Shown here: piece after piece, positions 29,758 to 42,736 of the stretch | Numbering within the stretch: position 1 is the stretch's first letter | How the letters are laid out: each line of letters starts with the position of its first letter | NCBI GenBank assembly: GCA_038870455.1 | Contig: JAWCPB010000003.1 | Location: forward strand, 1-50,076 | Direction of reading: 5' to 3' | Length of the DNA stretch: 50,076 nt | DNA from: Candidatus Micrarchaeia archaeon | Lineage (GTDB): Archaea; Micrarchaeota; Micrarchaeia; Burarchaeales; JACRGF01 | Made by a program: the position numbers and the translations under genes | Notes under the pieces: generated by a model | Seen by the model: only the letters and a program-made list of their open reading frames with translations | Told to the model about the DNA's origin: nothing | Database searches by the model: none

Positions 29758-29803
29758 ACAACGGACAGTTTTGGCGCCACAACAGAAAATGATAATCGAA
29801 GTT

Positions 29804-30709
29804 TTAAAGCGCTATTTTCAGCCCCAGTTCTTTCTTGAGCTCCCTGTACCGGTTGCGTATGGTGACTTCGGTCACTCCAGCTACGTCCGCAACTTCCTTC
29901 TGCGTTCTTCTTTCTCCGACCATCGCGCTCGCGATGTACACCGCGGCCGCGGCGACGCCCGTGGGCCCCCTGCCCGAGATGAGGCCCTTGCTGATCGCCT
30001 TCTTGAGCAGCTCGATGGCCTTCTCCTGAACCTCGCCGCTGAGCTTGAGCGCGGTCGAAAAGCGTGGCACGTAGTGCGTGGGATCGGTGAGCGGAACGCG
30101 CAGGCCCAGCTCGTGCGCGATGAAGCGGTAGGTGCGGCCGATTTCCTTTTTCTCGATGCCGCTCTGCTCGGATATCTCGTCGAGCGTGCGCGGGATGCCG
30201 TAGTCCCTGCAGATCGCGTACAGCACGGCGGCCACGACGTTCTCGATGAGCCTGCCCCTGATGAGGCCCTTCTCGATGCACTTGCGGTAGAGCAGGGCGG
30301 CCGACTCGCGGATGTTCTCGGGCAGGCCCAGGTAGGAGGCGATGCGGTCGAGCTCGCTGAGCGCAATGGCCAGGTTCCTCTCCATCGAGGAGGCTATGGA
30401 CGCGCGCTTGTGCCACTTGCGCATGCGGAAGAGCTGCGCCTGTTTCTTGCTGGGGATCTTGGCCCCCCTGATGTCGCGGTTATACTGGTCGATCTCGGTC
30501 ACGAGCCCCTTGTTGGGCCTCATGTACTTGATGGGCGCTCCTCCCCGCACACGCTTCTCCCTCTGCTCGGCGTCGAAAGCGCGCCACTCGGGGCCCGAGT
30601 CGAGGATGTTCTCGGCCACAATGAGCCCGCACTCGTTGCAGATGAGCTCGCCGCGCTCATAATCGCGCGTGAGTTTTTTGTTTCCACATTCGGGACATTT
30701 TTCGCCCAT
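29804..30709 (-). CDS. tfb: Transcription initiation factor B (TFB)
   Basis: N-terminal Zn ribbon CPECGNKKL...ICNECG, B-reader SGPEWRAFD, two cyclin repeats and a C-terminal HTH. Confidence 0.95.
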
Positions 30710-30736
30710 GACACCACTCCTCGGAGGACAAGAAGG

Positions 30737-30745
30737 TTTTTAAAC
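30737..30745 (-). promoter_or_regulatory. Putative TATA box of tfb
   Basis: tttttaaac lies about 28 nt from ATG 30709 on the minus strand. Confidence 0.45.
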
Positions 30746-30761
30746 AGAACGTGGGGAGGGT

Positions 30762-30769
30762 ATTTAAAT
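30762..30769 (+). promoter_or_regulatory. Putative TATA box of the GT-C / GT2-MT / pilin transcription unit
   Basis: atttaaat lies 22-29 nt upstream of ATG 30791. Confidence 0.45.
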
Positions 30770-30790
30770 TTTTTCCTAGCGCATGAGATT

Positions 30791-32239
30791 ATGGAGTGGT
30801 GGAAGCGGGAGGGCACCTGGTTAGTCACGCTGGTCCTCACAGCGTTCGTTTTCCGCTACCCGTTCATCTACACCCTACCGCTCAGGATGGACGAGCCGCT
30901 TTACGCCGAGCACATCGAGGAGTTCATAGAAAAGCCCGGCCTCGTCCCTGTTTTCTACAACACACTCGCGACCTGGAAGCCCATCCTCGCCTTCGCCGCG
31001 TACGCGCCGTTTGTGCTCCTGTTCAAAAGCCTAGGCGTGAGCGAGCCTGACGTGCTTTACAGGCTTCCGGCGGTTTTCTTCGGCGTGCTGAATGCGGTTG
31101 TGATGTATTTCCTGTTGATGAGGATTGATTTTGAAAAACCGCGGCGGGAAGTCGCGTTCCTCGGCGCGCTGATATACGCGACCATGCCGCTGTCCATGGA
31201 GACGGAGAGGTTGCTGCTCACGGACGCGTTCTTCGTTTTCCTCATAAACCTCGCCATGCTCTCATACACAAACGCGAAGAGCCTGAAGTGGCTGGCGGCA
31301 GCGGCGTTCCTCTCGTTCCTTGCCGCATGGACAAAGACCCTCGCAGCGCTGATGATTCCCCTTCTGGCAGTTGCGTACTGGCTCTGGAGGGAGAAAAATT
31401 TCGTGAAAAACCCGCTTTTTCTGGCGTCGCTGGCTGGCGCCCCGCTGGGAATCGCCTCCTATCTGGCGCTCACATGGAATATCCAAGGAATGCGTGGGCA
31501 GGTCGTTTACGACGTCGTGGGGAGGCTCGCCTCATATGGGGGGATGGCCCCGCTCACCGCTATGCAGTTTGTCTCGCTGACTCTCCCTTGGAACGCGTTC
31601 GGCGCGCTCGGGGCTTGGAGGTTCTGGAGAAAAAACGCGTTCTGCTCGCTCTGGCTCGCGCTCGCGGCGCCGCTCTCGCTGCTGGCCTACTTCATGCACT
31701 GGTACTTTCTGCCTGTCATTCCGGCCGTGGCTTGGTTCGCCGCGAAATACCTGGCGCACCCGCGCGTTGATCGGCTAACCGGTTTCGTGGTGGTGTTGTT
31801 GGCGTGCGTGATTTTCCTAGCGGCCACGGTCAACACGCTGATTCCAAACAGGGTCTTTGAGGAACAGAAGGAGATCGGCGTCTACCTGCAGGGAAAAAAC
31901 AAGCTGCTCTACTTCGGCGACTACGCCTCCACGCTCGTGTTCTACGCGCTGCTGGAAAACAAGTCAAAGGATTACAGGATAGTCTATGCGAGAAGCCAGC
32001 AGCTCAACGAGAGCTTGGTGGGGAACGTGACGCGCGGAAACGAGTACCAGTCGGTGGGGATGAACGAGGGGTGGTTCTCGAAAAGCCCGGTCTCCTGGGG
32101 AACGTGGAGGGGCGCTTACGAGTACATCGCTACCCAGCCGGCGGTGTGGGGGAACTACTCCAAATTCTTCGGGGAATACGAGCTCGCCAAGAACTCTTCT
32201 GAAGGTTCATACCAGGTGTTCAGGCGCACGCATGCTTAA
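30791..32239 (+). CDS. GT-C fold membrane glycosyltransferase (ArnT/PMT_2, GT39/GT83-like)
   Basis: About 11-12 TM helices. The first-loop acidic motif is LRMDEPLYAEH. There is a C-terminal soluble domain. Only the C-terminal 482 codons of track ORF 29612..32239 are real, because the upstream part is antisense to tfb. Confidence 0.75.
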   Translation: MEWWKREGTWLVTLVLTAFVFRYPFIYTLPLRMDEPLYAEHIEEFIEKPGLVPVFYNTLATWKPILAFAAYAPFVLLFKSLGVSEPDVLYRLPAVFFGVLNAVVMYFLLMRIDFEKPRREVAFLGALIYATMPLSMETERLLLTDAFFVFLINLAMLSYTNAKSLKWLAAAAFLSFLAAWTKTLAALMIPLLAVAYWLWREKNFVKNPLFLASLAGAPLGIASYLALTWNIQGMRGQVVYDVVGRLASYGGMAPLTAMQFVSLTLPWNAFGALGAWRFWRKNAFCSLWLALAAPLSLLAYFMHWYFLPVIPAVAWFAAKYLAHPRVDRLTGFVVVLLACVIFLAATVNTLIPNRVFEEQKEIGVYLQGKNKLLYFGDYASTLVFYALLENKSKDYRIVYARSQQLNESLVGNVTRGNEYQSVGMNEGWFSKSPVSWGTWRGAYEYIATQPAVWGNYSKFFGEYELAKNSSEGSYQVFRRTHA

Positions 32240-32265
32240 AAAATGCCGCGAGAAAAAAAAGCCTG

Positions 32266-33702
32266 ATGGCCGAAAAAGTCACGCTGGTGCTGCCGGTCTA
32301 TAACGAGGAGCACGCGCTCGAGCACGCGGTGAAGAGCCTAAAGAAGGAGGCTCGGAAGCTGGGCAGACCCTTTGAGATAATAATCGCTGAGGACGGCTCG
32401 GTGGATGGAACATATGGGGTGGCGAAGAGACTGACCCAAGGAAACGTCAGGATGCTGCACTCAAGAAAGAGGCTGGGAAGAGGCGCGGCACTATCCAGGG
32501 CGATTGAAAAAGCGGACTCCGACATAGTCGCCTACATCGACGTGGATCTGGCCTCCAGCCTAGCAGGCCTGCGCAGACTGGTGAGGAGCGTAGAGAAAGG
32601 CGAGGCTATATCGACCGGCTCGAGGATGCTCCCAGGCGCGGCGGTGAAGCGGAGCGCCATGCGGGAAATCGCGAGCAGGGCGTATAATCTCCTCGTTCGC
32701 CTGCTGTTCGGCTCCCGCATTCACGACCACCAGTGCGGTTTCAAGGCTTTTCGCAGAAGCGCTGTGCTGCCCCTGCTCGAAGAAGTTGAGGACAGGCACT
32801 GGTTCTGGGACACGGAGCTACTCGTGCGCGCGCAGGCGAACGGCCTGCGGGTGAATGAATTCCCAATCACATGGAAGGAGGGGGAGGGCTCGAAGGTGAG
32901 GCTGTGGGCGGACGCCACGTACATGCTCGGCAGGCTCATCGCTCTCTGCTTCAAGAAACTGAAGTCGGAAAAAATCAAAGCGGGAAGAAGATTTCCTTCG
33001 CCGAGGGCCTTCCGCGAGTGGAACGAACAGATGTTCAAAAAGTTTAACACCGAGAGGCTCTATCGCCATCCAAACCCGTTTGTGGCGTGGGTGGAGAATG
33101 AAAGGGTGAGGAGAGTGGCCGCGGAAGTTGCCGGAGAGGGAAGCGTGCTCGATGTGGGCTGCGGTGGGGGGGTGATTTTAGAGAAAATTGGTGCCGAGAA
33201 AGCGGTAGGGCTGGATTTATCGAGAGAGGCACTTAGACAGGCGAGGGCAAGGGTGCCAGAAGCAAGGCTGACTTACGGCGACGCGCAAAGGCTCCCCTTC
33301 AGGGATAGCTCGTTCGACGCCGTGGTGTGCTCGGAAATAATCGAACACGTGCCGAGGCCGCGAAGAGTGTTGGAGGAAGCGGCGAGGGTGGCAAAGCCGA
33401 ACGGGAGGGTGATCGTGACGATTCCGGAGGAAAAAAACATCAACAGGGTGAAGGGTTTCCTCAAGCGTCTTGGGCTGTTCAACCTCCTGCTCCCGAATGT
33501 GCCGGAAAGGATGGAGAGCGAGTGGCACCTCCATGCGTTCAGTCTTGAGCTGTTAAAGAAAATCCTGCCGGGAGAGTTGCGTGTAGAAAAAATATTGGAC
33601 ATTCCTCCCCTTTATCCCATCCGAAGAGTTGTGGTTTTCCGAGTGCGAAAAGCTTTTAAATGGAGTGGATGTAATCCTGTTGCCAGAGGTGGTGTTGGAT
33701 GA
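32266..33702 (+). CDS. Fusion: GT2 polyprenyl-phosphate glycosyltransferase (DPM/DPG synthase/ArnC-like) plus class I SAM-dependent methyltransferase
   Basis: GT2 half: LVLPVYNEE, IIIAEDGSVDGT, YIDVDL and HDHQCGFKAF. Methyltransferase half: VLDVGCGGGVILEKIG, and LPFRDSSFDAVVCSEIIEHV. Confidence 0.85.
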   Translation: MAEKVTLVLPVYNEEHALEHAVKSLKKEARKLGRPFEIIIAEDGSVDGTYGVAKRLTQGNVRMLHSRKRLGRGAALSRAIEKADSDIVAYIDVDLASSLAGLRRLVRSVEKGEAISTGSRMLPGAAVKRSAMREIASRAYNLLVRLLFGSRIHDHQCGFKAFRRSAVLPLLEEVEDRHWFWDTELLVRAQANGLRVNEFPITWKEGEGSKVRLWADATYMLGRLIALCFKKLKSEKIKAGRRFPSPRAFREWNEQMFKKFNTERLYRHPNPFVAWVENERVRRVAAEVAGEGSVLDVGCGGGVILEKIGAEKAVGLDLSREALRQARARVPEARLTYGDAQRLPFRDSSFDAVVCSEIIEHVPRPRRVLEEAARVAKPNGRVIVTIPEEKNINRVKGFLKRLGLFNLLLPNVPERMESEWHLHAFSLELLKKILPGELRVEKILDIPPLYPIRRVVVFRVRKAFKWSGCNPVARGGVG

Positions 33703-34040
33703 GTCGGAATACCAGACTGCTTGTCTTGGTGTGCCTGCTGGTGTTCACCCAGGTGGCGGCAGCGCAAATTGTTTCAGCGCTGCAAAACATGTGCCAGACG
33801 ATCAAAGCGATCGTGCCCATGGTGGCCCTGCTGATGTTCATTATTGCAGGAGCAGTGTACGCTGCGGGCCAGGTCATGGGCGCCGAGACGAGGGCGAGGG
33901 CGAACGTGTGGAGCACTGCCATGCTTGTTGGAGGCATTATCGGCCTCATCATAGCAGCGAGCGCGCCGTACTTTGTCCAGATTTTCAGCCAGTTCTCGCT
34001 GGGAAGCACGGCGACGAGTTTCTCCTCAGTGTCCTGCTGA
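33699..34040 (+). CDS. VirB2/TrbC-type (CedA1/TedC-like) candidate pilin: Sec signal peptide plus helix-loop-helix hairpin plus Ser/Thr-rich tail
   Basis: Signal peptide MSRNTRLLVLVCLLVFTQVAAA|Q. Hydrophobic helix 1 is IKAIVPMVALLMFIIAGAVYAAG. The short basic loop is QVMGAETRARANV. Helix 2 is WSTAMLVGGIIGLIIAASAPYF. The tail is SLGSTATSFSSVSC. ATGA overlap with the GT2-MT stop. The call rests on architecture only; no sequence search was done. Confidence 0.55.
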   Translation: MSRNTRLLVLVCLLVFTQVAAAQIVSALQNMCQTIKAIVPMVALLMFIIAGAVYAAGQVMGAETRARANVWSTAMLVGGIIGLIIAASAPYFVQIFSQFSLGSTATSFSSVSC

Positions 34041-34041
34041 G

Positions 34042-34067
34042 TTTTTTCTTTCCCTCTTTTTTTCTTT
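34042..34067 (+). terminator. T-rich archaeal-type terminator/attenuator directly after the pilin gene
   Basis: ttttttctttccctctttttttcttt, followed by a small hairpin AGCCC-CCAGC-GGGCT. Confidence 0.45.
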
Positions 34068-34100
34068 CACAGCCCCCAGCGGGCTTCTTCTCTGAGTTAT

Positions 34101-34111
34101 GTTTAAAAAGG
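34101..34111 (+). promoter_or_regulatory. Putative TATA box of the ATPase/membrane-protein operon
   Basis: gtttaaaaagg lies about 26-36 nt upstream of ATG 34137. Confidence 0.4.
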
Positions 34112-34136
34112 AGCGCAGCGAAGTAGGCTCGAGAGC

Positions 34137-34949
34137 ATGGCCGTCGAGATTCCAACAAAATACTGGGCTTTCGGCTGCATGGGCGCGGGCCTCATGGCGC
34201 TCCTCGTGGGATTTACGAACTCCGGCACGAGCGCAGCGCTCGCGGCCATAGGAGCCGGCTTTTTCTTCTTCCTCAGCTTTGCATTCTACAAGTGGGGATA
34301 CATCCTCGTGCCGCTCATCACGACAGGCTCTAGAGTGGTTGAGGTGCATGAGGGAGGGTACGAGATTCCGCCCACGCAGGACGCCGTGCTGCGCGAGATA
34401 AAGGGCATCTACTACGCCAGCAAGTTCCTGCTCGTGAGAATATACGAGAGCATGACGGAGAAGAGCGAGGAGGAGAAGGCGCAGTACACCGAGTTCTTCG
34501 AGAGGGCCATCACATCGGTCAAGTACGTGACCAAGTTCTGCATGCTCGTTTATGTGAAGGACCTCACCAAGTACAGGGAACAAATCGAGACAAAGAGAAT
34601 GGAGGCGCAGCTCCGCCTCTCAAGGGAAATGGAGAAGCCCGAGCCGGACGTGCTGAAGGTGGACAGGTACGAGAGGGAAAAGGGAATGTGGGACGCCATG
34701 CTCCAGAGGCTCATGAGTGGAGTCAGGCCAATGGGAAGCGTCTGCTACGTCATGACGACAGCGACGGGCGTGACGAAAGACGCCGCGCTGGCGGCCGCGC
34801 GCGCGCAGGCGAACGAGCTGCGGGCGACGATTGCCAACGCGCTGAACGTTGAGGTGGTGCCGCTCACCGGCGAGGACATGAAGAGGTGCTTTGACTGGGA
34901 ATTCACGCTGCCGCCGACAGTGAAGGAGCTTGAGGAACAGATTTCCTAG
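34137..34949 (+). CDS. Membrane protein with an N-terminal 2-TM hairpin and ~200-aa cytoplasmic domain; candidate VirB3 / VirB4-N-terminal-domain equivalent
   Basis: TM1 is WAFGCMGAGLMALLVGF and TM2 is AALAAIGAGFFFFLSFAFY. A soluble alpha/beta plus coiled segment follows. The stop lies 8 nt before the ATPase ATG. Confidence 0.5.
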   Translation: MAVEIPTKYWAFGCMGAGLMALLVGFTNSGTSAALAAIGAGFFFFLSFAFYKWGYILVPLITTGSRVVEVHEGGYEIPPTQDAVLREIKGIYYASKFLLVRIYESMTEKSEEEKAQYTEFFERAITSVKYVTKFCMLVYVKDLTKYREQIETKRMEAQLRLSREMEKPEPDVLKVDRYEREKGMWDAMLQRLMSGVRPMGSVCYVMTTATGVTKDAALAAARAQANELRATIANALNVEVVPLTGEDMKRCFDWEFTLPPTVKELEEQIS

Positions 34950-34957
34950 GTGAAGGG

Positions 34958-36526
34958 ATGGGCAGAATAAAGATTACAGACATTCACAGCGACAAGCTGG
35001 CGGCCAGAAACATTTTCGTCAGGCCCCCTGAGCCGCCTGAGGAGTACCTCATGGGAAACCCGGCGGACAGCATCTACATCGGCAAGACGAAGATTTTTCA
35101 CGTGCCGTTTCACTGGAGCTTCCGCAACATCACAAACCCGCACATCTGCGTCATCGGCATAACGGGATCCGGCAAGAGCTACTTCGTCAAGACCTTCCTC
35201 ACGAGAGCGAGTTTTGTGTGGGGCACCAACGCGTTCATCATTGATTGGGCGGGCGAGTACAGGGATTGGGTGAAGCAGACGGGCGGCCGGGTCATTGCGC
35301 TCGGCAAGGGAAGCTACATCAACCTGCTGGACACGGCTGGCATGAAGCCCATCGACAGGATAAAGCAGATAATCAGGACGCTCGAGATACTCACGGACAT
35401 CGGCCAGTACCCAGAGCAGAGGAGGCTCACCGAAATAGCGATTGAAGAGGCGTACGTGCGGGCCGGCTTCAAGATGGCTGAAAAGATTCAGAGGGATGCG
35501 CTGGGAAACCCGCTCAAGCCCCCGACGCTCAAGGACGTGCAGAGAATACTAGAGGAAAAGCTCGCTGCTGGCACGTACGAGTTTCCGGCAGAGCTCGAGA
35601 ACGCGATATACAGGATAAAGAAATTCACCAGAGAGGGCGAGGACTTCTTTGCCGAGCAGAGCACGGTCAATCTCGAGGAGCTGACCAAGGCGGGCCTGGT
35701 CGACCTGGACCTCAGCGGGCTGCCGGACGAGGTTTTCAGAGGCCTCGCAGGTCTGTCCATGCTGCAGTTCCTGAAGGAAAAAATGAGGGAGGAAGGCTGG
35801 TCGCCTACAAAGGGGCTCAAACTGCTCGTTGTGCTTGACGAGGCGTGGAAAATAGCCAAGGACGACAACTCCGATGCCGTGATGATTGTCAGGGAGGGCA
35901 GAAAGTACCAGTTCGGGCTCATCGTGGCCAGCCAGAACCCCACTGACATCAGTGAGGCCATCTTCAGCAACGTGGGCACGACTTTCATTCTCCGCATCAA
36001 ATTCGAGAGGTTCCTGGACTATGTGCAGGCGAGCCTGAACTTCAGCGACTATATGAGGAATGAGATAAGCAGGTTCGGGGTCGGGCAGGCGGCGGTGAAC
36101 ATGGCATTCCAGACCGCCACGCCCTTCGCCGAGACGTTCCTGCTGGAGAAGGTGGAGGGCGAGGAGCCTCTCGTGGAATATTTCCTGGACATGGAGAGCG
36201 TGACAGGACCGGGGGAGGTGGAGGGCGTGGCGAAGACCTACTCGTTCGAGAAAAACGACCTCAAGAGGAGGCTGAGGAACTTCGGGCTCGAGGACGCGAG
36301 AGTTGAGGAGATCACGACGCTGTTTGACAAGAAGAACCGCCACATCGACGTGGTGTCCTTCGTTGTGCTGCTGGAGAGGTACGGCGTGATTCGCACGCAC
36401 ATCACGCAGTTCCTCAAAGACATTGGCATGGACGACCCGACCATAATAACGGTGTTCAGCAAGGCGGACTTCAAGAAGCTCGGGCTCGAGGACAGGGACA
36501 TAACCGAGGTCATACTGCAGGAGTGA
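34958..36526 (+). CDS. VirB4/TrbE/CedB-like ATPase of the FtsK-HerA superfamily (DUF87/AAA_10-like)
   Basis: Walker A is ICVIGITGSGKSY (35156-35179). Walker B is LLVVLDEAWKIA with the VirB4-typical DEAW (35837-35848). REGRKYQFGLIVASQNPTDI is present. The C-terminal extension carries two (F)GLED....EI helical repeats. Confidence 0.75.
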   Translation: MGRIKITDIHSDKLAARNIFVRPPEPPEEYLMGNPADSIYIGKTKIFHVPFHWSFRNITNPHICVIGITGSGKSYFVKTFLTRASFVWGTNAFIIDWAGEYRDWVKQTGGRVIALGKGSYINLLDTAGMKPIDRIKQIIRTLEILTDIGQYPEQRRLTEIAIEEAYVRAGFKMAEKIQRDALGNPLKPPTLKDVQRILEEKLAAGTYEFPAELENAIYRIKKFTREGEDFFAEQSTVNLEELTKAGLVDLDLSGLPDEVFRGLAGLSMLQFLKEKMREEGWSPTKGLKLLVVLDEAWKIAKDDNSDAVMIVREGRKYQFGLIVASQNPTDISEAIFSNVGTTFILRIKFERFLDYVQASLNFSDYMRNEISRFGVGQAAVNMAFQTATPFAETFLLEKVEGEEPLVEYFLDMESVTGPGEVEGVAKTYSFEKNDLKRRLRNFGLEDARVEEITTLFDKKNRHIDVVSFVVLLERYGVIRTHITQFLKDIGMDDPTIITVFSKADFKKLGLEDRDITEVILQE

Positions 36527-36530
36527 TGAC

Positions 36531-36890
36531 ATGCCCAAAACGGTTTGCATAATCTGTGGCCGGCGGAGGGCGGGCGCGCCCGTGGTGGACGATGCGGTGA
36601 TACGGACCATCCGGTGGGCCAAGCGCAAGCTCGGCGTGGCGCAGGGAAACAAGCTTGTGGTATGCCCCGAGGACATGGAGGAGCACCTGAAGAGAAGGCA
36701 ACGGTTCGAGAAGCGCCTGATCCAGTACGGCGCGCTGTTCTTTGTGCTGGCGGTCGCCATGCTCCTGCTGTCCGGCTCGCTGGCGGGCGTGCTGGTGATT
36801 GTGCTCATGGCCGCCTTCATCATGGCGCTGGTGATCGCTGTGAACTACACCCCGCATGTTAGAAAGACAGGGAGGGAAAGGCGTGGCTGA
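36531..36890 (+). CDS. Small membrane protein with an N-terminal Cys-rich (CxxC...C) domain and 2 TM helices
   Basis: Contains VCIICGRRRAG...VVCPEDMEEH, then ALFFVLAVAMLLLSGSLAGVLVIVLMAAFIMALVIAV. It starts 4 nt after the ATPase stop. Confidence 0.55.
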   Translation: MPKTVCIICGRRRAGAPVVDDAVIRTIRWAKRKLGVAQGNKLVVCPEDMEEHLKRRQRFEKRLIQYGALFFVLAVAMLLLSGSLAGVLVIVLMAAFIMALVIAVNYTPHVRKTGRERRG

Positions 36891-37617
36891 GGAAAAAACG
36901 CCGGAAGCGCTCGAGCCGAGAGTTGACGGCTTCCGCTTCGCCGCGAAGAGGAAGAAGGGGGTGGAGGAGGTTACCAAGGCGCTCTCGCCGCTTTCGTTCC
37001 TGGAAGTCGCCCCGGAGGGGGACGTGGTCGCGCTCATCAACGTCGAGTCAAGGGATATTTCGAAAAACCCGTACTCTTTCACGCTCACTTACCTCAAGCC
37101 CGAGAGCATAGAGCTCATGTACACGATACCCCCGGGCACGAGCCCGCGCAAGAGGCGCGTGGATGTCTTCCGCTTCCTCCTCAACCTCCTCACGCTGCTC
37201 GACGAGTGCTATGAGGTCGACCGCAAGGAGTTCTACCAGCTCATCGACGCGGCGTTTAAGGGAGTCGGCGAGTACGTGTCCTCGTCGTACGACGAGATTT
37301 TCGCGAAGTACGATGCGTGCAGGAGCGAGAACGAGATTCTCAGGAAGAGGGTGGAGAGCCTGCAGTCCACCAACGACCGCCTCGGAAAGGACAACATGGA
37401 GCTCAAGGAAAAGAACGACGCCCTCGCCCTCAGGCTGCGCGAGCTCGAGAGCTACAGCGACGACGTGCTCATGCTCAAGATACAGGAGTGGCTGCTGGAG
37501 CACAAGAACGAGATAAACATAGGCGAGTTCAGCAAAGTGCATAAGGTGCGCGAGCAGAGGGTGGAGCAGGTGCTGAACAGGATGGTGACCGAGGGGCTGC
37601 TAGCGGTCCGGGAGTAG
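36856..37617 (+). CDS. Soluble protein: N-terminal domain, central coiled coil, C-terminal winged helix
   Basis: The coiled coil is ENEILRKRVESLQSTNDRLGKDNMELKEKNDALALRLRELE. The C-terminal wHTH is INIGEFSKVHKVREQRVEQVLNRMVTEGLLAV. The alternative start GTG 36883 is preceded by GGAGG (36871-36875). Confidence 0.6.
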   Translation: MLERQGGKGVAEEKTPEALEPRVDGFRFAAKRKKGVEEVTKALSPLSFLEVAPEGDVVALINVESRDISKNPYSFTLTYLKPESIELMYTIPPGTSPRKRRVDVFRFLLNLLTLLDECYEVDRKEFYQLIDAAFKGVGEYVSSSYDEIFAKYDACRSENEILRKRVESLQSTNDRLGKDNMELKEKNDALALRLRELESYSDDVLMLKIQEWLLEHKNEINIGEFSKVHKVREQRVEQVLNRMVTEGLLAVRE

Positions 37618-37622
37618 GTGAC

Positions 37623-40253
37623 ATGCCCCGGAGGAATGAGAGGGACATCCTGAGCGCGAAGCCGGCCAAGAAGTCCTTCGTATTCGAGGTCAGGAAGAGG
37701 TTCGCGCACGTGAGAAAGTTCATCCCGGCCGCGCCCCCGAAGCTCGACGCATCCACGATAGCCGGCCTGCTCGGCGCGTACCTGAGGCGGAGGCGGGGCG
37801 ACAGGCAGGCTGAGGAGGAGTTCCGCCACCGCACTGCGCCCATGACGAAAGTGCTGCTGGGGCGGCTCATGTTCATCCTCATCGCGCTCTTCGTCATAGC
37901 CCTGCTCCTCGTGGGGGCTTTCTTCTTCATCGTCCTCAGTGCCCCCCCGCCCCCGCCTCCCCAGCCGGTGGTGGTGGCGCCCACCGTGAGCTACAGCGTG
38001 CAGAAGTACGACGTGCTGTCGTTCGGGCCAGGCAGCGAGTACGCCGCGTTTGCGACCGTGCCCATGCAGGGAAGGGACGTGCAGGAAGTGAGGCTCCACC
38101 TCGACCTGTTCGCCGACGAGGTGCCGCAGGACATCTTCCTGCTAAAGTCGCGCAGGGAACAGGCCACGCAGTACGCGGAGTTCAAGAAGTATCTGGAGGC
38201 CGAGCTGGCCAAGCAGGGCCTCAGGGCCAACGAACTGCACATAGACCAGCTGAGGAGGCTGCCCAGGGAAAGCAGGGCGGTAATAATAGTGCCCTCGGGC
38301 TTCTTCCCCGCAGTTTTCCTCGGCCTCGTCGACCCGGATTTCGACGTGCGCACGCTGCTCGGCCAGGGAAACGTCATCATCTACATGGGCCACGGGTTCG
38401 ACAGGGGAGCGATTTTCGAGCGGGAGGGCAGGGTGAGGGTGAACGCTGATGCCGCGGCAAAACGCCTTGGATTCGGCATCGGCCCGCCCACCGGAGCACA
38501 CAGCGAAGACGGGTACAACCTCAGGGACCCGCAGTACAGCATAGTGCCCGTAGAGAGGGAGCTGCCCCTGGCTTCGGTGCACGGCTCGATGTACAGCGTG
38601 AACATCGGCAGCGGCTACATGCTTTTCCTGCCCCAGCCTCTTGACAGCGGATGGCTGAACGGCGCGCAGGCTGCGCAGGATGTTGCTAGGCTCATTCAGG
38701 AGGCCGCGTGGCAGAGGGCGTTCAGGGGTAAGCTCGTGGCCGTGGGAGAGAAAAGGGTGGCAGCGGCGAATGGCTCGGTGTCGGCCAATCCGCTCCTGCT
38801 CTCCACGCCTTATCCCAAGCAGAATGCATGGGGAAGGCTTCAGGTCAGCGTGGTGGGGCTCGACAACAGAACTTACGGGCGGACCATCTTCCTGAAGTAC
38901 GACAACGTGGTGAGAGGCCAGCTCAGGCACTCCACCTCGGCGCTTCCCACCGAACTGAGCGGGCAGAGGCTGACGGTGAGCGGTGAGTTCAATGAGCCGG
39001 AGAGCGTGTGGAGGCTCCGCAAGCCAGTGAATGTCTATCTCGTGTTCTACAACTCGACCTCGCGCGTTTCGTCGCGCCTCATGCAGGCCGAGCCGGTCAT
39101 CCCGACCGCGCTCTATCCCATCTCGGCGGACGTGGAAATCACGGTGCCCAGCGGAGACTATTACCTGAGAGTGGAGGACGAGGATGGGAACGTGTTTGCC
39201 CAGAGCTACCTCAGAGTTCCGGAGATAAACATCACGAAGGAAGTGCAGAACTTCGGCGCGGGGTATTTCTCCTTCGACGTGAAGGCGGACGGAGTGCCCG
39301 CGGACTTGAGGAACGTGCGCGTGTCGCTCGACGGACTGCAGGAGACCGTGCTGGCAACGCGCGAATCGAGGGTGACGAGCGGGGCCAGGGTGCTCGAGTA
39401 TGTTTTCCAAGGAAGGATAGGCGAGGGCGAGCACGCTTTCCTCATAGAGTACGCCGGACAGAAGACGACCATCACCGGGACTTACACGTTTCCGAAAAAC
39501 TGGTGGGACAACCCGCTCATGCAGGTGGGGCTCGTCTTCACCGCAATAATATTCGTTATGGGCGTGCTGCTGCGCAGGCCCGAGCCCGTGATGTACGGCA
39601 TTGACGTGCCCGACTTCCCGCCCACGGCCAAGGTGCTCATCCCGCTGCCGCCAAAAACGGTCACCGACCTTTTCGACACGCTCGAGGCCGAGTACGGCTG
39701 GAAGTACATGCCGCTCGAGCCGAGGGAGCTCAAGAACGGATTCAGGAAAGTCGTTTACAAAGGAAGGGGCATTCTCATCGGCGACTACAACCTCGAAAAG
39801 CTGCTCGAGAAGCTCGAGGCCAAGGGCCTGGTGGAGAGCGCGCTGGGACTGTGGGGTCTCAAAAAGTGGGTGCAGGAAAGCAGGAAGAGCATGAGGTACC
39901 TCGCCGTATTCAGGAAGCTCAGGACTATTTTCGTGAACAACGCGGTCAAGTTCACGGACTTCGGCGAAAGGCAGGACTGCGACACGGCGATAAGCATTCC
40001 CGAAACCGTTTTCGTGCACATCTACGACGGCGACGCCGTACTGCCGAGAGTGCTGGCGAGCGCGCAGAAGGGCGCGAGCGTGCTCGTGTTCGCGGACAAC
40101 CTCGAGAGGGAGGTTTTCAAGCGAAAGCTCTACTCGCCAGAGCCCCTGCTCGTCGCGCTCAAGCTCATGAAGGACCAGGGAAGGCTCGTCCTCACAGACA
40201 CCGAGTGGTTCGAGAGAAAGATAATAAAGAAGGAAAAGGCAGGCAGGAGCTAA
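37623..40253 (+). CDS. 876-aa bitopic membrane protein: cytoplasmic N-tail, TM, ~520-aa extracellular domain, TM, ~230-aa cytoplasmic C-domain
   Basis: TM1 is LLGRLMFILIALFVIALLLVGAFFFIVL, followed by a PPPPPPPQP linker. The exodomain carries sequons (NGS, NRT, NST, NIT). TM2 is LMQVGLVFTAIIFVMGVLL. No recognisable family. Confidence 0.65.
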   Translation: MPRRNERDILSAKPAKKSFVFEVRKRFAHVRKFIPAAPPKLDASTIAGLLGAYLRRRRGDRQAEEEFRHRTAPMTKVLLGRLMFILIALFVIALLLVGAFFFIVLSAPPPPPPQPVVVAPTVSYSVQKYDVLSFGPGSEYAAFATVPMQGRDVQEVRLHLDLFADEVPQDIFLLKSRREQATQYAEFKKYLEAELAKQGLRANELHIDQLRRLPRESRAVIIVPSGFFPAVFLGLVDPDFDVRTLLGQGNVIIYMGHGFDRGAIFEREGRVRVNADAAAKRLGFGIGPPTGAHSEDGYNLRDPQYSIVPVERELPLASVHGSMYSVNIGSGYMLFLPQPLDSGWLNGAQAAQDVARLIQEAAWQRAFRGKLVAVGEKRVAAANGSVSANPLLLSTPYPKQNAWGRLQVSVVGLDNRTYGRTIFLKYDNVVRGQLRHSTSALPTELSGQRLTVSGEFNEPESVWRLRKPVNVYLVFYNSTSRVSSRLMQAEPVIPTALYPISADVEITVPSGDYYLRVEDEDGNVFAQSYLRVPEINITKEVQNFGAGYFSFDVKADGVPADLRNVRVSLDGLQETVLATRESRVTSGARVLEYVFQGRIGEGEHAFLIEYAGQKTTITGTYTFPKNWWDNPLMQVGLVFTAIIFVMGVLLRRPEPVMYGIDVPDFPPTAKVLIPLPPKTVTDLFDTLEAEYGWKYMPLEPRELKNGFRKVVYKGRGILIGDYNLEKLLEKLEAKGLVESALGLWGLKKWVQESRKSMRYLAVFRKLRTIFVNNAVKFTDFGERQDCDTAISIPETVFVHIYDGDAVLPRVLASAQKGASVLVFADNLEREVFKRKLYSPEPLLVALKLMKDQGRLVLTDTEWFERKIIKKEKAGRS

Positions 40254-40957
40254 CGCACCAGCGCGTAGTCCTCAACCGGTTTCCCGAACAGGTAATGCCT
40301 TATGCCGGCAGACCAGTAGCGCAGGGCCTCGCGGAAATAGCCAAAGCGGCGGAAGCGCCTCGGCGAAGCCGCCACAGTCAAGCGGCTGTCGAACACAACT
40401 CGGCCGAACCCCTTCATCCTGTTGGCCAGCTCGTTGTCCTCGATGGCGAGCAGGGTCTCGCTGAATCCGCCGGCGCGCTCGAAAGCCTTTTTCCTCACGG
40501 CAAGGTTTGAGCCGTGGAAGGAATAGAAGCCGGCGAGAGAGGCAAGTCGAGGGAACCAGTCGCTGAAAAGCGCGTAGAAAAACCTGTCAGGCAAGCCGCC
40601 GTCGGTGGGCGAGAGCGGGCCGCCGACGCAGACAACGCTGGGGTCGCGGAAGCAGGAGGTTATGCGCTCCAGCCAATCGCTGTCCGGAAGAGAGTCCGCG
40701 TCCGTGAAAGCGAGAATGCTGCCTCTTGCCAAGGACGCGCCGGCGTTCCTGGCCGCGCCCGCCCCTCTGCGCTTTTTTTCAACGATGACGCGAGCGCCGC
40801 CCGACCTCGCGGCAGCGACTGTCCCGTCAGTGCTGCCGCCATCGACAACAATTATTTCGATGGGGGAAAGCGTTTGTTTGCGCAGGCTCCGGATGCACGC
40901 GCCGATGTTCTCCTTTTCGTTGAAGGCCGGGATGACCACGCTGATGGTGTTTTCCAA
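40250..40957 (-). CDS. Family-2 glycosyltransferase
   Basis: Contains ISVVIPAFNEKENI, IEIIVVDGGSTDGT and ILAFTDADS. Confidence 0.85.
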   Translation of the reverse strand: MENTISVVIPAFNEKENIGACIRSLRKQTLSPIEIIVVDGGSTDGTVAAARSGGARVIVEKKRRGAGAARNAGASLARGSILAFTDADSLPDSDWLERITSCFRDPSVVCVGGPLSPTDGGLPDRFFYALFSDWFPRLASLAGFYSFHGSNLAVRKKAFERAGGFSETLLAIEDNELANRMKGFGRVVFDSRLTVAASPRRFRRFGYFREALRYWSAGIRHYLFGKPVEDYALVR

Positions 40958-42094
40958 CTACAGCACCTCGGCGTAGATTTTCAGCAGGCGTGCGGTGCAT
41001 CGCTGTATGGAGTATTTCTCGGCCGTGGCCCGGGCGTTTCCGGCGAGCGCGCGCCTTCTCCTGAGGCACTGCAGCACCGCCCTGGCACAATCGTCAGGCG
41101 AGTCCGGCTCGAATAGAAAGCCATTGCGATTGTCCCTGACCAGCTCGCTGATGGCCAAGTAGTCCGCGCCCGCGACAGGCTTTCCGCACGCCATGGCCTC
41201 GAGCGCGGCGAGCCCCTGCGTCTCAAACTTGCTGGGAAAGGCGAACACGTCGCACGCTGCATAATGGGCGGGAAGCTCGGTGTCAGGCACGAAGCCGGTG
41301 AAGACAAAGCTCCTGGCCACCCCCTCCCGCTCGGCCAGCTTCCGGTAGTAGTCGAGCGCAGGGCCGGCTCCGGCTATGACGAAGCGCGCGTCAGGCTCTT
41401 CCTCTTGGATGAGCAGCGCACTGCGAATGAGCACCTCGAGGTTCTTCTCGAGCGCGACCCTGCCAACGTGCAGGATGAGCGGGTTGGCCTCGAGGCCGAG
41501 CCTCGCCCTCACGGGCCTTCCGTCCACGCGCGGGTTGAACCTATTCACGTCAATTCCGTTCGGGGCGGTGCGGAGGTTGCGGAAGCCGTGCCCGGCGAGC
41601 AGCCTCGCGATGGCGCTGCTGGGCGCGATGGTGCGGTCGCACTGATTGTAGTACCACCGCACGTAGTTCCAGGCAATGCGCTGGGTGAGGCGCCTCACGG
41701 CACCCGCACGCGAGATGTAGTGCGTGGCCTCGGGCACGAGCGTGTGGAAAGAGCCCACCAAGGGGAGGCCGTGAGCGCGAGACACCGCCAGCGCGGCGAG
41801 GCCCATGGTCGCCATGCCGTGAGAGTGAATGAGCTCGCAGCCCAGCTTTGTGACCCTGCTCTCGCTGAAGAAGGGAAACAACGCAATTTTGTACTCGGGA
41901 TAAGGCTGGAACGGGGCTGCCGTGTGGTAGAACACGCGCGCGTCCCTGTTTTCCCTCCTCGCCCGCAGCGAGCCGGGGCAGAACACGAAAACCTCATGCC
42001 CCCTCCTCTCGAGCTCGGCCCGCGTGTTGAGGATGCTGCTGACCACGCCATCGCGCGTCGGAAGGTACGTGTCGGTGAAGAAGGCAATGCGCAT
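40958..42094 (-). CDS. GT-B fold glycosyltransferase (GT4 family)
   Basis: Contains MRIAFFTDTYLPTRDGV, HSHG, and the C-terminal FPSKFETQGLAALEAMACGKPV (EX7E motif). Confidence 0.85.
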   Translation of the reverse strand: MRIAFFTDTYLPTRDGVVSSILNTRAELERRGHEVFVFCPGSLRARRENRDARVFYHTAAPFQPYPEYKIALFPFFSESRVTKLGCELIHSHGMATMGLAALAVSRAHGLPLVGSFHTLVPEATHYISRAGAVRRLTQRIAWNYVRWYYNQCDRTIAPSSAIARLLAGHGFRNLRTAPNGIDVNRFNPRVDGRPVRARLGLEANPLILHVGRVALEKNLEVLIRSALLIQEEEPDARFVIAGAGPALDYYRKLAEREGVARSFVFTGFVPDTELPAHYAACDVFAFPSKFETQGLAALEAMACGKPVAGADYLAISELVRDNRNGFLFEPDSPDDCARAVLQCLRRRRALAGNARATAEKYSIQRCTARLLKIYAEVL

Positions 42095-42138
42095 CGGCTA
42101 ATCAATGGGAGAAATAAAAATAAAAGAGGGGAGGGAAG

Positions 42139-42657: not shown

Positions 42658-42679
42658 CCAAACAACACCCCCGTGTCTT

Positions 42680-42736
42680 TGCGGGAACAACGCCTTTCCT
42701 GCTTTTAAACTTATCTAACCGGCTTCTGTTCCCGCA
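42680..42736. repeat. Perfect 10-bp inverted repeat TGCGGGAACA ... TGTTCCCGCA bracketing an A/T box (gcttttaaactta)
   Basis: The arms are at 42680-42689 and 42727-42736. They lie in the 232-bp divergent intergenic region between the Gly-zipper gene and the XRE regulator gene. Confidence 0.6.

What the first reader, a model, noticed from the sequence alone, without database searches (positions are those of the whole stretch)
33699..34067. Candidate pilin is translationally coupled to a glycosyltransferase-methyltransferase gene, carries a Ser/Thr-rich C-terminal tail ending in Cys, and is followed by a T-rich terminator
The pilin ATG overlaps the stop of the GT2-MT fusion gene (ATGA at 33699-33702). 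Immediately after its stop comes a 26-nt T-rich tract, and a fresh TATA-like box (34101-34111) precedes the machinery genes. This is the layout expected for a highly expressed structural subunit with read-through attenuation into the assembly genes. The tail SLGSTATSFSSVSC is a plausible O-glycosylation or processing segment. Bacterial VirB2/TrbC pilins are C-terminally processed or cyclised, and archaeal conjugation-like pili are lipid-associated. The genetic link to polyprenyl-phosphate sugar enzymes suggests a modified pilin.
Basis: partly seen in the sequence, partly recalled or inferred. Interest (0 to 1): 0.65.

Follow-up and report, generated by a model that had tools for sequence, protein, structure and literature searches.

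The report
Cysteine-stapled conjugative-type pilin in Micrarchaeota
This small gene encodes the subunit of a conjugation-type (VirB2-like) pilus in a tiny symbiotic archaeon. Its overlap with the sugar-transferase gene is a recent accident, while its odd C-terminal cysteine is one half of a family-wide cysteine pair that probably pins the exposed tail to the subunit by a disulfide bond.

Summary
ORF 33699-34040 (113 aa) shares ATGA with the stop of the GT2-methyltransferase gene. It ends in SLGSTATSFSSVSC and is followed by a 26-nt pyrimidine tract (20 T). TTTAAAAA lies 28 nt before the next gene.

The protein passes Pfam's threshold for T4SS_pilin (PF18895). It heads a module with a VirB4/CedB/HerA-like ATPase that recurs in at least eight Micrarchaeota (DPANN) loci.

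Three points change the interpretation:
- **The ATGA overlap is not conserved.** The closest relative has TGA where the window has TGG (33661-33663), so the overlap is a 13-codon read-through. The pilin has its own TATA-like box and Shine-Dalgarno sequence.
- **The terminator and downstream promoter are conserved.** The T-tract after the pilin stop and the TATA box before the machinery genes occur in all nine module loci.
- **The terminal Cys pairs with Cys32.** Of 256 pilin domains, 244 have both cysteines, 9 have neither and 3 have one. Extracellular Cys counts are even in 215 of 230. This points to a disulfide stapling the N-segment to the tail, and argues against removal of the tail.

PMT-like GT-C genes cluster near pilin genes (11 of 12 within 2.5 kb; 5.1 expected). 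Glycosylation of the tail is therefore plausible but unproven. No RNA data exist.

The parts
30791..32239 (+). PMT-like GT-C glycosyltransferase, 482 aa, about 8 TM segments. The listed 875-aa TTG ORF from 29612 is an over-extension.
   Evidence: Pfam PF02366 PMT, 33 bits against cutoff 22.7. 93% identical to the 482-aa gene of L001. TM scan.
32266..33702 (+). GT2 (AglD/ArnC/DPMS-like polyprenyl-phosphate hexose synthase type) fused to a class I SAM methyltransferase. The last 13 codons (33661-33699) are a read-through extension.
   Evidence: Pfam and NCBIfam. PDB best matches are ArnC and Dol-P-Man synthase. About 50% identity to archaeal AglD / Dol-P-glucose synthase GT2 domains. C-termini of homologues.
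33661..33663 (+). TGG codon (Trp466 of GT2-MT). The closest relative has the stop TGA here. This single-base difference creates the ATGA overlap.
   Evidence: DNA alignment A2. L001 protein is 465 aa against 478 aa in the window.
33654..33661 (+). TTTTAAAT, a TATA-like box 37 nt before the pilin ATG. Inferred to be the pilin's own promoter.
   Evidence: One of 52 A/T runs of 8 or more in 50 kb. Pilin genes of five other module loci have TATA-like boxes upstream, and three of them (L002, L012, L013) also a GGAGG; L002, L011 and L012 have no GT gene directly upstream. Inference only; no RNA data.
33686..33694 (+). GAGGTGGTG, a Shine-Dalgarno-like sequence 4 nt before the pilin ATG.
   Evidence: Read from the sequence.
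33699..34040 (+). Pilin precursor, 113 aa. Signal peptide is residues 1-22 (cleavage ..VAAA|QIV inferred). Helix 1 contains Cys32 (33792-33794). Invariant loop is GAETRARAN (33879-33905). Helix 2 follows, then the G/S/T-rich tail at residues 97-113 (33987-34037), ending in Cys113 (34035-34037).
   Evidence: Pfam PF18895 above cutoff; TrbC 26.0 against cutoff 27.9. AF2 helical hairpin H3-59 and H62-100, pLDDT 81.5. Alignment A1. Cys statistics.
34025..34067 (+). Hairpin (34025-34041) plus 26-nt pyrimidine tract (34042-34067). Inferred to be an archaeal oligo-T terminator of the pilin transcript.
   Evidence: Pattern scan. T-tract directly after the stop in 9 of 9 module loci. Family-wide enrichment, p = 4e-10.
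34102..34109 (+). TTTAAAAA, a TATA-like box 28 nt before ATG 34137. Inferred promoter of the machinery operon, giving a leaderless or near-leaderless mRNA.
   Evidence: A TTTAAA-type box precedes the p270 homologue in all 9 module loci.
34137..34949 (+). 270-aa protein with an N-terminal TM region and a soluble domain. Conserved first gene of the machinery operon.
   Evidence: Syntenic in 8 loci at 56-93% identity. No family match.
34958..36526 (+). VirB4/CedB/CedD/HerA-like FtsK-HerA superfamily ATPase, 522 aa.
   Evidence: Pfam DUF87, AAA_10 and P-loop_TraG. NCBIfam CedD, CedB and VirB4 models match, all below their cutoffs. PDB matches are HerA and the VirB4 C-terminal domain 4ag5.
36531..40253 (+). 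Three further conserved module genes: 119 aa (Cys-rich N-terminus plus TM), 253 aa (coiled coil), and 876 aa (2-3 TM segments, large exodomain).
   Evidence: Synteny in 6-8 loci. No family match. TM scan.
40250..42094 (-). Convergent GT2 (40250-40957) and GT4 (40958-42094) genes. The GT4 is syntenic with the module in every module locus long enough to show it.
   Evidence: Pfam. GT4 follows the module in L001, L002, L011, L012, L013, L028 and L084.

Best explanation
ORF 33699-34040 encodes the structural subunit (VirB2/TrbC-type, Pfam T4SS_pilin) of a chromosomal, Ced/Ted-like conjugation-type pilus system of a hot-spring Micrarchaeota (DPANN) archaeon.

Shown:
- Family membership.
- Helical-hairpin architecture with an N-terminal signal peptide.
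- Conserved synteny of pilin(s), a 270-aa protein, a VirB4-like ATPase, and proteins of 119, about 250 and about 876 aa.
- A conserved T-tract directly after the pilin stop and a conserved TATA box before the 270-aa gene.
- A cysteine pair that is near-universal and co-varies.

Inferred mechanism:
- The pilin is transcribed from its own promoter (TTTTAAAT 33654-61, SD GAGGTG), which lies in what is now the 3' end of the GT2-MT gene. Transcription ends at the oligo-T tract 34042-67. The machinery operon starts afresh at TTTAAAAA 34102-09.
- The ATGA overlap arose when the GT2-MT stop (TGA in the closest relative) became TGG, adding 13 codons. It is incidental and is not a coupling device.
- The precursor is exported by Sec and cleaved after AAA22. 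It sits in the membrane N-out/C-out, with the invariant basic loop GAETRARAN in the cytoplasm. The ATPase module polymerises it so that the loop lines the lumen and both termini face outward.
- Cys32, ten residues into the mature protein, forms a disulfide with the C-terminal Cys113. This staples the variable G/S/T-rich tail to helix 1. It would be a non-peptide functional analogue of the head-to-tail cyclisation of TrbC and TrhA pilins.
- The tail is retained and surface-exposed. It is the most likely site of any O-glycosylation by the neighbouring PMT-like GT-C enzyme, using Dol-P-hexose made by the GT2 domain. That last step is a hypothesis only.
For: Family:
- PF18895 scores 29.6 bits against cutoff 26.6, and TrbC has E = 1e-5.
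- 28 of 39 aligned relatives match PF18895 and 21 of 39 match TrbC.

Fold:
- AF2 predicts two long helices, 3-59 and 62-100, with a disordered tail.
- There are three hydrophobic segments: the signal peptide, TM1 and TM2.

Synteny:
- The module recurs in L001, L002, L011, L012, L013, L015, L028, L052 and L084.

Regulation:
- The T-tract and downstream TATA box are present in 9 of 9 loci.
- At least 55% T after the stop occurs in 27% of 97 pilin ORFs against 2% of 975 other long ORFs, Mann-Whitney p = 4e-10.
- A/T octamers are rare in the window.

Stop loss:
- TGA in L001 against TGG in the window.
- L001's GT2-MT is 465 aa and ends 35 nt before the pilin.
- Two of the four remoter GT2-MT fusions (P0132, P0136) end at the same alignment position as L001's; none has the window's extension sequence.
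- L002, L011 and L012 have no GT gene directly upstream.

Cysteine pair:
- 117 of 119 close homologues have both cysteines, and the two exceptions are truncated.
- Over 256 domains including remote representatives: both 244, neither 9, one only 3; Fisher p = 5e-14.
- Extracellular Cys totals are even in 215 of 230. Among proteins with more than two, 56 of 70 are even.
- A second Cys next to the N-Cys (LCCGL) comes with a second Cys next to the tail Cys (CTC, CTNC) in 13 proteins.
- In 51 of 116 proteins the Cys is the last residue.

Termini can meet on the pilus surface:
- TrhA Gly1-Asp69 cyclisation is surface-exposed (PMC13031515, PMC12037004).
- TrbC is cyclic (PMC13434634).

GT link:
- PMT-like genes lie within 2.5 kb of a pilin in 11 of 12 cases against 5.1 expected, p = 3.5e-4.
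- A conserved second locus type has a pilin array, a GT2 and two or three GT-C genes.
Against: - No transcript, protein or filament data exist. The only metatranscriptome of the study holds nothing from this organism.
- I could not obtain model coordinates, so no Cys-Cys distance was measured. With helix 2 running to residue 100, the tail must fold back about 15 A to reach Cys32.
- An intermolecular disulfide would fit the covariation equally well.
- The covariation statistics are not corrected for phylogeny. The 9 'neither' domains come from about two lineages.
- No thiol-oxidising enzyme was identified, and many Micrarchaeota live in anoxic water.
- Foldseek and HMM searches of the PDB give no significant match to any solved pilin. 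The best is TrwL at E = 1.5.
- The module has no VirB6/CedA/TedA-like polytopic protein.
- The promoter inside the GT2-MT 3' end is a single 8-nt motif, with a chance of about 4% for a 30-nt target.
- In the window and L001, the pilin may also be co-transcribed with the GT genes.
Confidence: 0.65

Rival explanations
1. The pilin is translationally coupled to the GT2-MT gene so that pilin and its modifying enzymes are made together. The S/T tail is a processing or cyclisation segment, as in TrbC/VirB2.
For: - The ATGA overlap exists.
- PMT, GT2-MT and pilin are co-oriented and tightly packed in the window and in L001.
- GT-C genes are enriched near pilins.
Against: - The overlap is absent in the closest relative. 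There the stop is 35 nt upstream, one base different.
- L002, L011 and L012 have no GT gene directly upstream of the pilin.
- The pilin has its own TATA-like box and strong SD.
- The terminal Cys is conserved and co-varies with Cys32, so the tail is kept rather than removed.
- No TraF-like peptidase was seen in the module.
Confidence: 0.1
2. The same pilin, but the cysteine pair forms intermolecular disulfides. Cys32 of one subunit bonds to the tail Cys of a neighbour, covalently cross-linking the filament. This would aid stability in hot or acidic water.
For: - The co-variation and even-number rule fit any N-segment-to-tail pairing, within or between subunits.
- The tail is long and flexible (pLDDT about 55).
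- The sample is a hot spring.
Against: - Tails as short as 3 residues past TM2 leave little reach to a neighbouring subunit.
- Nothing here distinguishes the two geometries.
Confidence: 0.2
3. The protein is not polymerised into an extracellular pilus. It stays a membrane-embedded part of the ATPase-driven channel, with the VirB2-like hairpin acting as a channel lining. The paralogue arrays would be variants of that part.
For: - The module lacks a VirB6-like pore protein, so another membrane protein must form the channel.
- Beltran et al. (PMC9905601) argue that pilins derive from bona fide membrane proteins related to VirB6.
- No filament has been observed.
Against: - Family membership is with pilins.
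- Variable, Cys-rich or very long C-terminal extensions sit on an otherwise invariant core. This is what a surface-displayed filament subunit looks like.
- A strong terminator and separate promoter fit a subunit made in excess.
Confidence: 0.12
4. The neighbouring GT genes have nothing to do with the pilin. They serve S-layer or lipid glycosylation and merely cluster with other envelope genes in a compact genome.
For: - GT2 genes in general are not closer to pilins than chance: 6 of 16 against 5.2 expected.
- Most pilin loci (about 84%) show no PMT-like gene in the DNA fetched.
- The AglD/AglS-type pair works on N-glycans of S-layer proteins in Haloferax (my own knowledge).
Against: - PMT-like genes are positionally enriched, p = 3.5e-4.
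- The pilin-GT2-GT-C arrangement is conserved between distant Micrarchaeota lineages.
- GT4 follows the module in all 7 loci where that region can be seen.
Confidence: 0.4

Closest known systems
Pfam PF18895 T4SS_pilin, the VirB2-like pilins described in Patescibacteria/CPR T4SS (PMC12102498)
   Same: - Scores above the family's curated cutoff.
- Small protein with a signal peptide and two TM helices.
- Encoded near a VirB4-like ATPase.
- The host organism is an ultra-small episymbiont.
   Different: - Archaeal rather than bacterial.
- The partner genes (270, 119, 253 and 876 aa) match no known T4SS component.
- The near-universal Cys pair and Cys-ended tail are not mentioned for the CPR proteins. 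The CPR paper uses the word cysteine only for a peptidase domain.
TedC pilin / Ted system of Thermoproteales and CedA1 / Ced system of Sulfolobales (PMC9905601)
   Same: - Chromosomal, apparently domesticated conjugation-type system of archaea.
- Like TedC, a signal-peptidase-I type signal (AVA|QA there, AAA|QI here) and a two-helix hairpin.
- The ATPase matches the NCBIfam CedB/CedD models weakly.
   Different: - No detectable sequence similarity to any solved pilin chain, by phmmer or profile.
- No 7-TM VirB6/CedA/TedA-like gene in the module.
- No HerA/Rad50/ParA neighbours.
- A Cys pair is present.
- Pilin paralogue arrays occur in relatives.
- GT-C, GT2 and GT4 genes are neighbours.
Cyclic conjugative pilins TrbC (RP4) and TrhA (R27) (PMC13434634, PMC12037004, PMC13031515)
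   Same: - VirB2-family hairpin. TrbC Pfam E = 1e-5, just under the cutoff.
- N- and C-termini are joined on the outer face of the pilus. There the join is a peptide bond; here it is inferred to be a disulfide.
   Different: - No sign of C-terminal trimming and no TraF-like cyclase nearby.
- The link is a side-chain disulfide and leaves a 3-22 residue loop exposed.
- The bond is inferred and not demonstrated.
Type IV pilins with a C-terminal disulfide loop and an adjacent pilin glycosyltransferase (P. aeruginosa PilA with TfpO/PilO or the GT-C enzyme TfpW). From my own knowledge; not tested here.
   Same: - A pilin gene sits next to a membrane GT that uses a polyprenyl-linked sugar.
- Ser/Thr near the C-terminus is modified.
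- A Cys pair stabilises the exposed C-terminal region.
   Different: - Unrelated fold and assembly machine (type IV filament against T4SS).
- Analogy only.
AglD (Dol-P-hexose synthase) plus AglS (GT-C Dol-P-Man mannosyltransferase) of Haloferax volcanii. From my own knowledge.
   Same: - The GT2 domain is about 50% identical to archaeal AglD / Dol-P-glucose synthase type enzymes.
- It is paired with a PMT-family GT-C gene.
   Different: - Here the GT2 lacks TM or flippase-like domains and is fused to a SAM methyltransferase. This fusion is rare, with only five homologues found.
- The acceptor is unknown.

Membership tests
Pfam PF18895 T4SS_pilin | Score at or above the curated gathering cutoff | tested here: met
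   29.6 bits against 26.6, E = 7.6e-7, residues 22-96 on profile positions 3-71 of 71. 28 of 39 aligned relatives match at E < 0.01.
Pfam PF04956 TrbC/VirB2 | Score at or above the curated gathering cutoff | tested here: not met
   26.0 bits against 27.9, E = 1.1e-5. 21 of 39 relatives match at E < 0.01. Related to the family, but just below the line.
VirB2-type conjugative pilin (general) | Cleavable N-terminal signal, then two hydrophobic helices joined by a short charged loop | tested here: met
   The n-region is MSRNTR, the h-region residues 7-21, and AAA|Q is conserved as AxA in the alignment. AF2 gives helices 3-59 and 62-100. Hydropathy profile. Cleavage itself is inferred.
VirB2-type conjugative pilin (general) | Genetic association with a VirB4-class ATPase | tested here: met
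   The ATPase lies 918 nt downstream. The same order occurs in at least eight loci.
VirB2-type conjugative pilin (general) | Forms an extracellular, lipid-containing helical filament | not testable with these tools
   Needs cryo-EM or MS of filaments.
Ced/Ted DNA-import systems | VirB6-like polytopic (about 7 TM) CedA/TedA protein encoded with the pilin | tested here: not met
   No module protein has more than 3 TM-like segments and none matches a family. The rest of the genome could not be searched because the genome search was shut.
Ced/Ted DNA-import systems | Sequence similarity of the pilin to CedA1 or TedC | tested here: not met
   phmmer and the A1 profile against all PDB chains give no pilin hit except TrwL at E = 1.5.
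Ced/Ted DNA-import systems | CedB/TedB-type ATPase | tested here: inconclusive
   NCBIfam CedD scores 73.6 bits (cutoff 600) and CedB 70 bits (cutoff 700). VirB4 and HerA models score similarly.
Cyclic pilins (TrbC/TrhA type) | C-terminal trimming and head-to-tail peptide bond made by a TraF-like peptidase | tested here: not met
   No peptidase in the module. The last residue (Cys) is conserved and co-varies with Cys32, which argues against trimming. The chemistry itself is not testable here.
Disulfide-stapled pilin (proposed here) | Two extracellular Cys that co-occur, are lost together and are gained in pairs | tested here: met
   Both 244, neither 9, one only 3. Even totals in 215 of 230. 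Paired CC...CxC gains. The bond itself is not testable here.
O-glycosylated pilin | Glycan on Ser/Thr of the tail, dependent on the PMT-like enzyme | not testable with these tools
   Only the composition (G 15%, T 15%, S 13% in tails) and gene neighbourhood could be tested.

The most novel reading that the evidence does not exclude
Micrarchaeota, and perhaps other DPANN archaea, build a conjugation-type pilus with three unusual properties.
- Its subunits are closed by an N-segment-to-tail disulfide instead of a peptide bond.
- Its variable, disulfide-tethered tails (G/S/T-rich, Cys-knot-like, or adhesin-sized) are O-glycosylated by a dedicated PMT-like GT-C enzyme plus a Dol-P-hexose synthase.
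- It serves as the host-contact or uptake organelle of these episymbionts.

This would also give archaeal protein O-glycosylation its first candidate enzymes.
Probability: 0.15. Interest if true: 0.8.

Novelty: new variant of a known kind. Interest (0 to 1): 0.55.

Why it matters
Micrarchaeota are genome-reduced archaea that depend on a host cell. How they take DNA, lipids or metabolites from it is an open question.

A conserved, chromosomal VirB2/VirB4-type module with expanded and diversified pilin paralogues is a concrete candidate for that interface. I found no paper describing it.

The cysteine pair gives a simple, testable structural prediction. It would be a second, chemically different way of closing a conjugative pilin, next to the peptide cyclisation of TrbC and TrhA.

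The recurrent PMT-like and GT2 neighbours give a testable candidate pathway for archaeal O-glycosylation. To my knowledge, the enzymes of that pathway are still unidentified.

For annotation, the case shows that a 4-nt ATGA overlap can be a one-base accident and should not be read as designed coupling without comparison.

Tried and rejected
- **RNA evidence.** A search for runs holding the pilin found only DNA runs of one hot-spring study. The study's one metatranscriptome (X5) laid no contig on 30700-37700. Transcript ends and abundance therefore remain untested.
- **Structure comparison.** Foldseek of the AF2 model against the PDB gave only generic helical hairpins, E > 1. A two-helix model that still carries its signal peptide is uninformative.
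- **Sequence and profile against the PDB.** No TedC, CedA1, VirB2 or TraA hit was found. Spurious proteasome matches to the loop motif and TrwL at E = 1.5 were the best results.
- **Cys-Cys distance.** The prediction tool returns no coordinates, so the distance could not be measured.
- **Whole-genome searches** for VirB6-like, DsbA-like, TraF-like genes and further pilin paralogues. The genome search and the fetch from genomes were shut. The window itself has no second pilin copy.
- **PHROGs.** Nothing useful for the module proteins.
- **Class III (type IV pilin) signal.** Considered and rejected: there is no K/R-G/A cleavage motif before the hydrophobic stretch, and the Pfam hits are to VirB2-type families.
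- **Prenylation or lipidation of the terminal Cys.** Considered and rejected: the tail is extracellular by the positive-inside rule, and up to 7 or more residues may follow the Cys.
- **Lanthionine-type chemistry in the S/T/C tail.** Considered and rejected: no dehydratase or cyclase lies nearby, and the Cys partner is clearly another Cys.
- **GT2 adjacency as a general rule.** Not supported statistically. Only the PMT-like GT-C genes are enriched.


Full report
**Observation**

- ORF 33699-34040 encodes 113 residues: MSRNTRLLVLVCLLVFTQVAAAQIVSALQNMCQTIKAIVPMVALLMFIIAGAVYAAGQVMGAETRARANVWSTAMLVGGIIGLIIAASAPYFVQIFSQFSLGSTATSFSSVSC.
- Its ATG (33699-33701) shares ATGA with the TGA (33700-33702) of ORF 32266-33702.
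- After the stop comes TTTTTTCTTTCCCTCTTTTTTTCTTT (34042-34067; 20 T, 6 C), preceded by a 7-pair hairpin at 34025-34041.
- TTTAAAAA (34102-34109) lies 28 nt before ATG 34137.

The window is 60% G+C and 18% T. Only three + strand places reach 18 or more T in 30 nt, and only 52 A/T runs of 8 or more exist in 50 kb. These elements are therefore not background.

**What the protein is**

- It passes Pfam's curated cutoff for T4SS_pilin (PF18895, 29.6 against 26.6 bits). It falls just short for TrbC/VirB2 (26.0 against 27.9).
- Of 39 aligned relatives, 28 match PF18895 and 21 match TrbC.
- AlphaFold2 on the alignment gives two long helices (3-59 and 62-100) and a disordered tail, with mean pLDDT 81.5.
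- Hydropathy shows a signal h-region and two TM segments.
- The c-region AAA|Q is conserved as an AxA-type site in the alignment. This resembles TedC's AVA|QA (PMC9905601).
- Searches of solved structures found no pilin. The family link therefore rests on the Pfam profiles and on context.

**Context**

- Downstream lie a 270-aa membrane protein, a 522-aa FtsK-HerA-class ATPase, and proteins of 119, 253 and 876 aa without family matches.
- The ATPase matches Pfam DUF87, AAA_10 and TraG P-loop. Its NCBIfam matches to CedD, CedB and VirB4 are all weak. Its PDB matches are HerA and the VirB4 C-terminal domain.
- The order pilin(s), 270, ATPase, 119, about 250, about 876 recurs in L001, L002, L011, L012, L013, L015, L028, L052 and L084. 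All are Micrarchaeota MAGs.
- No module protein is a 6-7 TM VirB6/CedA/TedA-like protein.
- The source sample is a hot-spring metagenome.
- The pilin family is large and lineage-specific:
  - 169 close homologues;
  - 212 tblastn matches in species-representative genomes, with every kept locus whose record names a lineage labelled Micrarchaeota-lineage or, in one case, Ca. ainarchaeum;
  - 517 representatives at 50% clustering.
- Many genomes carry tandem arrays and several loci.

**The ATGA overlap is a recent accident**

- In the closest relative (L001), the region from the PMT gene through the module and beyond (window 30774-42761) is collinear at 87% nucleotide identity and the pilin is 85% identical. 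There the GT2-MT gene is 465 aa and stops 35 nt before the pilin ATG.
- The DNA alignment shows AAATGA in L001 against AAATGG in the window. Window codon 33661-33663 is Trp466, and 12 further codons (SGCNPVARGGVG) run into the pilin start.
- Two of the four remoter GT2-MT fusions (P0132, P0136) end at the same alignment position as L001's protein, and none carries the window's extension sequence.
- In L002, L011 and L012 the genes upstream of the pilin are a transposase fragment, an ABC transporter, and housekeeping genes plus a second pilin paralogue. They are not GT genes.

**The pilin's own signals**

- TTTTAAAT (33654-33661) lies 37 nt before the ATG. It is followed by GAGGTGGTG, 4 nt before the ATG.
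- Pilin genes of L002, L011, L012, L013 and L015 have TATA-like boxes upstream, and L002, L012 and L013 also show GGAGG.
- In L001 the same octamer ends at the GT2-MT stop codon.
- I infer an independent pilin promoter that now lies inside the extended GT2-MT reading frame. Co-transcription with the GT genes is not excluded.

**Terminator and downstream promoter**

- In all nine module loci a T-rich tract begins within a few bases of the pilin stop. The distance to the next gene varies from 92 to 248 nt, and the rest of the spacer is not conserved. The tract is therefore anchored to the pilin 3' end.
- Across relatives, at least 55% T in the 30 nt after the stop occurs in 27% of 97 pilin ORFs against 2% of 975 other long ORFs. 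A T-run of 5 or more occurs in 45% against 12%. Mann-Whitney p = 4e-10.
- In several tandem arrays (L002, L024, L027, L038) the last paralogue listed carries the tract.
- A TTTAAA-type box precedes the 270-aa gene in all nine loci.
It does so by comparison only.
- No RNA could be found. Abundance and read-through remain untested.

**The C-terminal cysteine**

This is the most informative result.
- In alignment A1, Cys32 is invariant and the C-terminal Cys is nearly so.
- Of 119 close homologues, 117 have both. The two exceptions are truncated.
- The N-Cys sits exactly 31 residues before the loop Glu. The tail Cys follows a variable stretch of 3-22 residues, rich in G, T and S at 15%, 15% and 13%. 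It is the last residue in 51 of 116 proteins.
- Over 256 pilin domains including remote representatives, 244 have both cysteines, 9 have neither, 2 have only the N-Cys and 1 has only the tail Cys. Fisher p = 5e-14, not corrected for phylogeny. The 'neither' class comes from about two lineages.
- Counting Cys in the two extracellular segments gives even totals in 215 of 230 proteins. Among proteins with more than two, 56 of 70 are even.
- The commonest elaboration is a paired gain: LCCGL at the N-site together with CTC, CTNC or CxC at the tail site, in 13 proteins.
- By the positive-inside rule, both segments are outside. The loop GAETRARAN is the only charged stretch between the TM helices.

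I therefore propose a disulfide between the N-segment of helix 1 and the tail. In cyclic pilins the two termini are joined on the pilus surface by a peptide bond (TrhA Gly1-Asp69, PMC13031515 and PMC12037004; TrbC, PMC13434634). A disulfide would achieve a similar closure by different chemistry, while leaving a variable loop exposed.

Whether the bond is within or between subunits cannot be decided here.

**Link to glycosyltransferases**

- The upstream genes are a PMT-family GT-C enzyme (PF02366; 30791-32239) and a GT2 fused to a methyltransferase.
- The GT2 half is about 50% identical to archaeal AglD / Dol-P-glucose synthase type domains. Its closest solved structures are ArnC and Dol-P-Man synthase.
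- This exact pair precedes the pilin only in the window and L001.
- PMT-like genes detectable with the window's protein lie within 2.5 kb of a pilin gene in 11 of 12 loci, against 5.1 expected from random placement (p = 3.5e-4).
- A second locus type is conserved between distant Micrarchaeota (L003/L004 and L085). It combines three or four pilin paralogues, a GT2, two or three PMT-like GT-C proteins and a GspE/VirB11-like ATPase.
- A GT4 gene follows the module in all seven loci where that region is visible.
- GT2 genes in general are not enriched.

The association of pilins with GT-C enzymes is thus real but partial. Glycosylation of the S/T-rich tail is a reasonable hypothesis and not a finding. 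Beltran et al. saw diffuse peripheral density consistent with glycosylation on the Ced and Ted pili (PMC9905601).

**Comparison and novelty**

- The protein is a member of Pfam T4SS_pilin and works like a VirB2-type pilin.
- It is not a demonstrable member of the Ced or Ted families. It has no sequence similarity to their pilins and the module has no VirB6-like partner.
- It is not a TrbC-type cyclic pilin.
- I found no publication on VirB2-like pilins or T4SS-like modules in Micrarchaeota. The related work covers Patescibacteria (PMC12102498) and Crenarchaeota (PMC9905601).
- I rate it a new variant of a known kind. The new elements are the co-varying cysteine pair, the tethered variable tail, and the recurrent GT-C neighbourhood.

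**Verdict**

It is a pilin, and the terminator and second promoter are supported by comparison.
- Designed translational coupling and C-terminal processing are not supported.
- Pilin glycosylation remains open.

Confidence in the overall explanation is 0.65. Interest is 0.55.

Noticed in passing
window 29241-29672 (- strand), compared with L001 2598-5924: Relative to the closest relative, the window lacks about 2.65 kb (L001 3080-5727). That stretch holds most of a PMT_2 gene, an amine-oxidase gene and most of a GT2 gene. The window's 143-aa 'GT2 remnant' ORF is the deletion scar, joining the GT2 5' end to the PMT_2 3' end.
   Followed up: partly
L002 2680-5829: The VirB4-like ATPase of this relative is 1049 aa because it carries an intein with a LAGLIDADG homing-endonuclease domain (Pfam Intein_splicing). 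The window's copy (522 aa) has none.
   Followed up: no
proteins P0346, P0361, P0381, P0383 (900-1276 aa) and P0277, P0292, P0325 (340-430 aa): Some relatives have the complete pilin domain at the N-terminus of a very long protein, in most of them (not P0325) with a Cys-rich linker at about +40 to +73 after the loop. These are possible tip or adhesin pilins.
   Followed up: no
proteins such as P0076, P0271, P0281, P0308, P0356: Many pilin paralogues replace the short G/S/T tail by a 40-90 residue extension with 7, 9, 11 or 13 cysteines. The count is usually odd in the tail, so the total is even. This suggests small disulfide-knotted domains displayed on the pilus.
   Followed up: partly
proteins P0355, P0358, P0372, P0385: A subfamily has two pilin domains in tandem in one polypeptide, and each domain lacks both conserved cysteines.
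   Followed up: no
L003/L004 9276-16863 and L085 167-8642: A second conserved pilin locus type contains three or four pilin paralogues, a GT2, two or three PMT-like GT-C proteins and a 760-780 aa GspE/CpaF/VirB11-like ATPase (P0127; PDB 2oap E = 1e-5). The VirB4-like module is absent from this locus.
   Followed up: partly
window 40212-40242: This stretch is A-rich on the + strand, so T-rich on the - strand. It lies directly after the stop of the convergent GT2 gene (40250) and overlaps the last codons of the 876-aa gene. It is probably the terminator of the GT4-GT2 operon.
   Followed up: no
window 29612-32239: The 875-aa TTG ORF listed mechanically is an over-extension across the divergent tfb promoter region. 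The real PMT-like gene starts at ATG 30791 (482 aa), as in L001.
   Followed up: yes
window 32236-32260: Two A/T runs (TTAAAAAAT and AAAAAAAA) fill the 26-nt gap between the PMT-like gene and the GT2-MT gene. The GT2-MT gene may therefore also have its own promoter.
   Followed up: no
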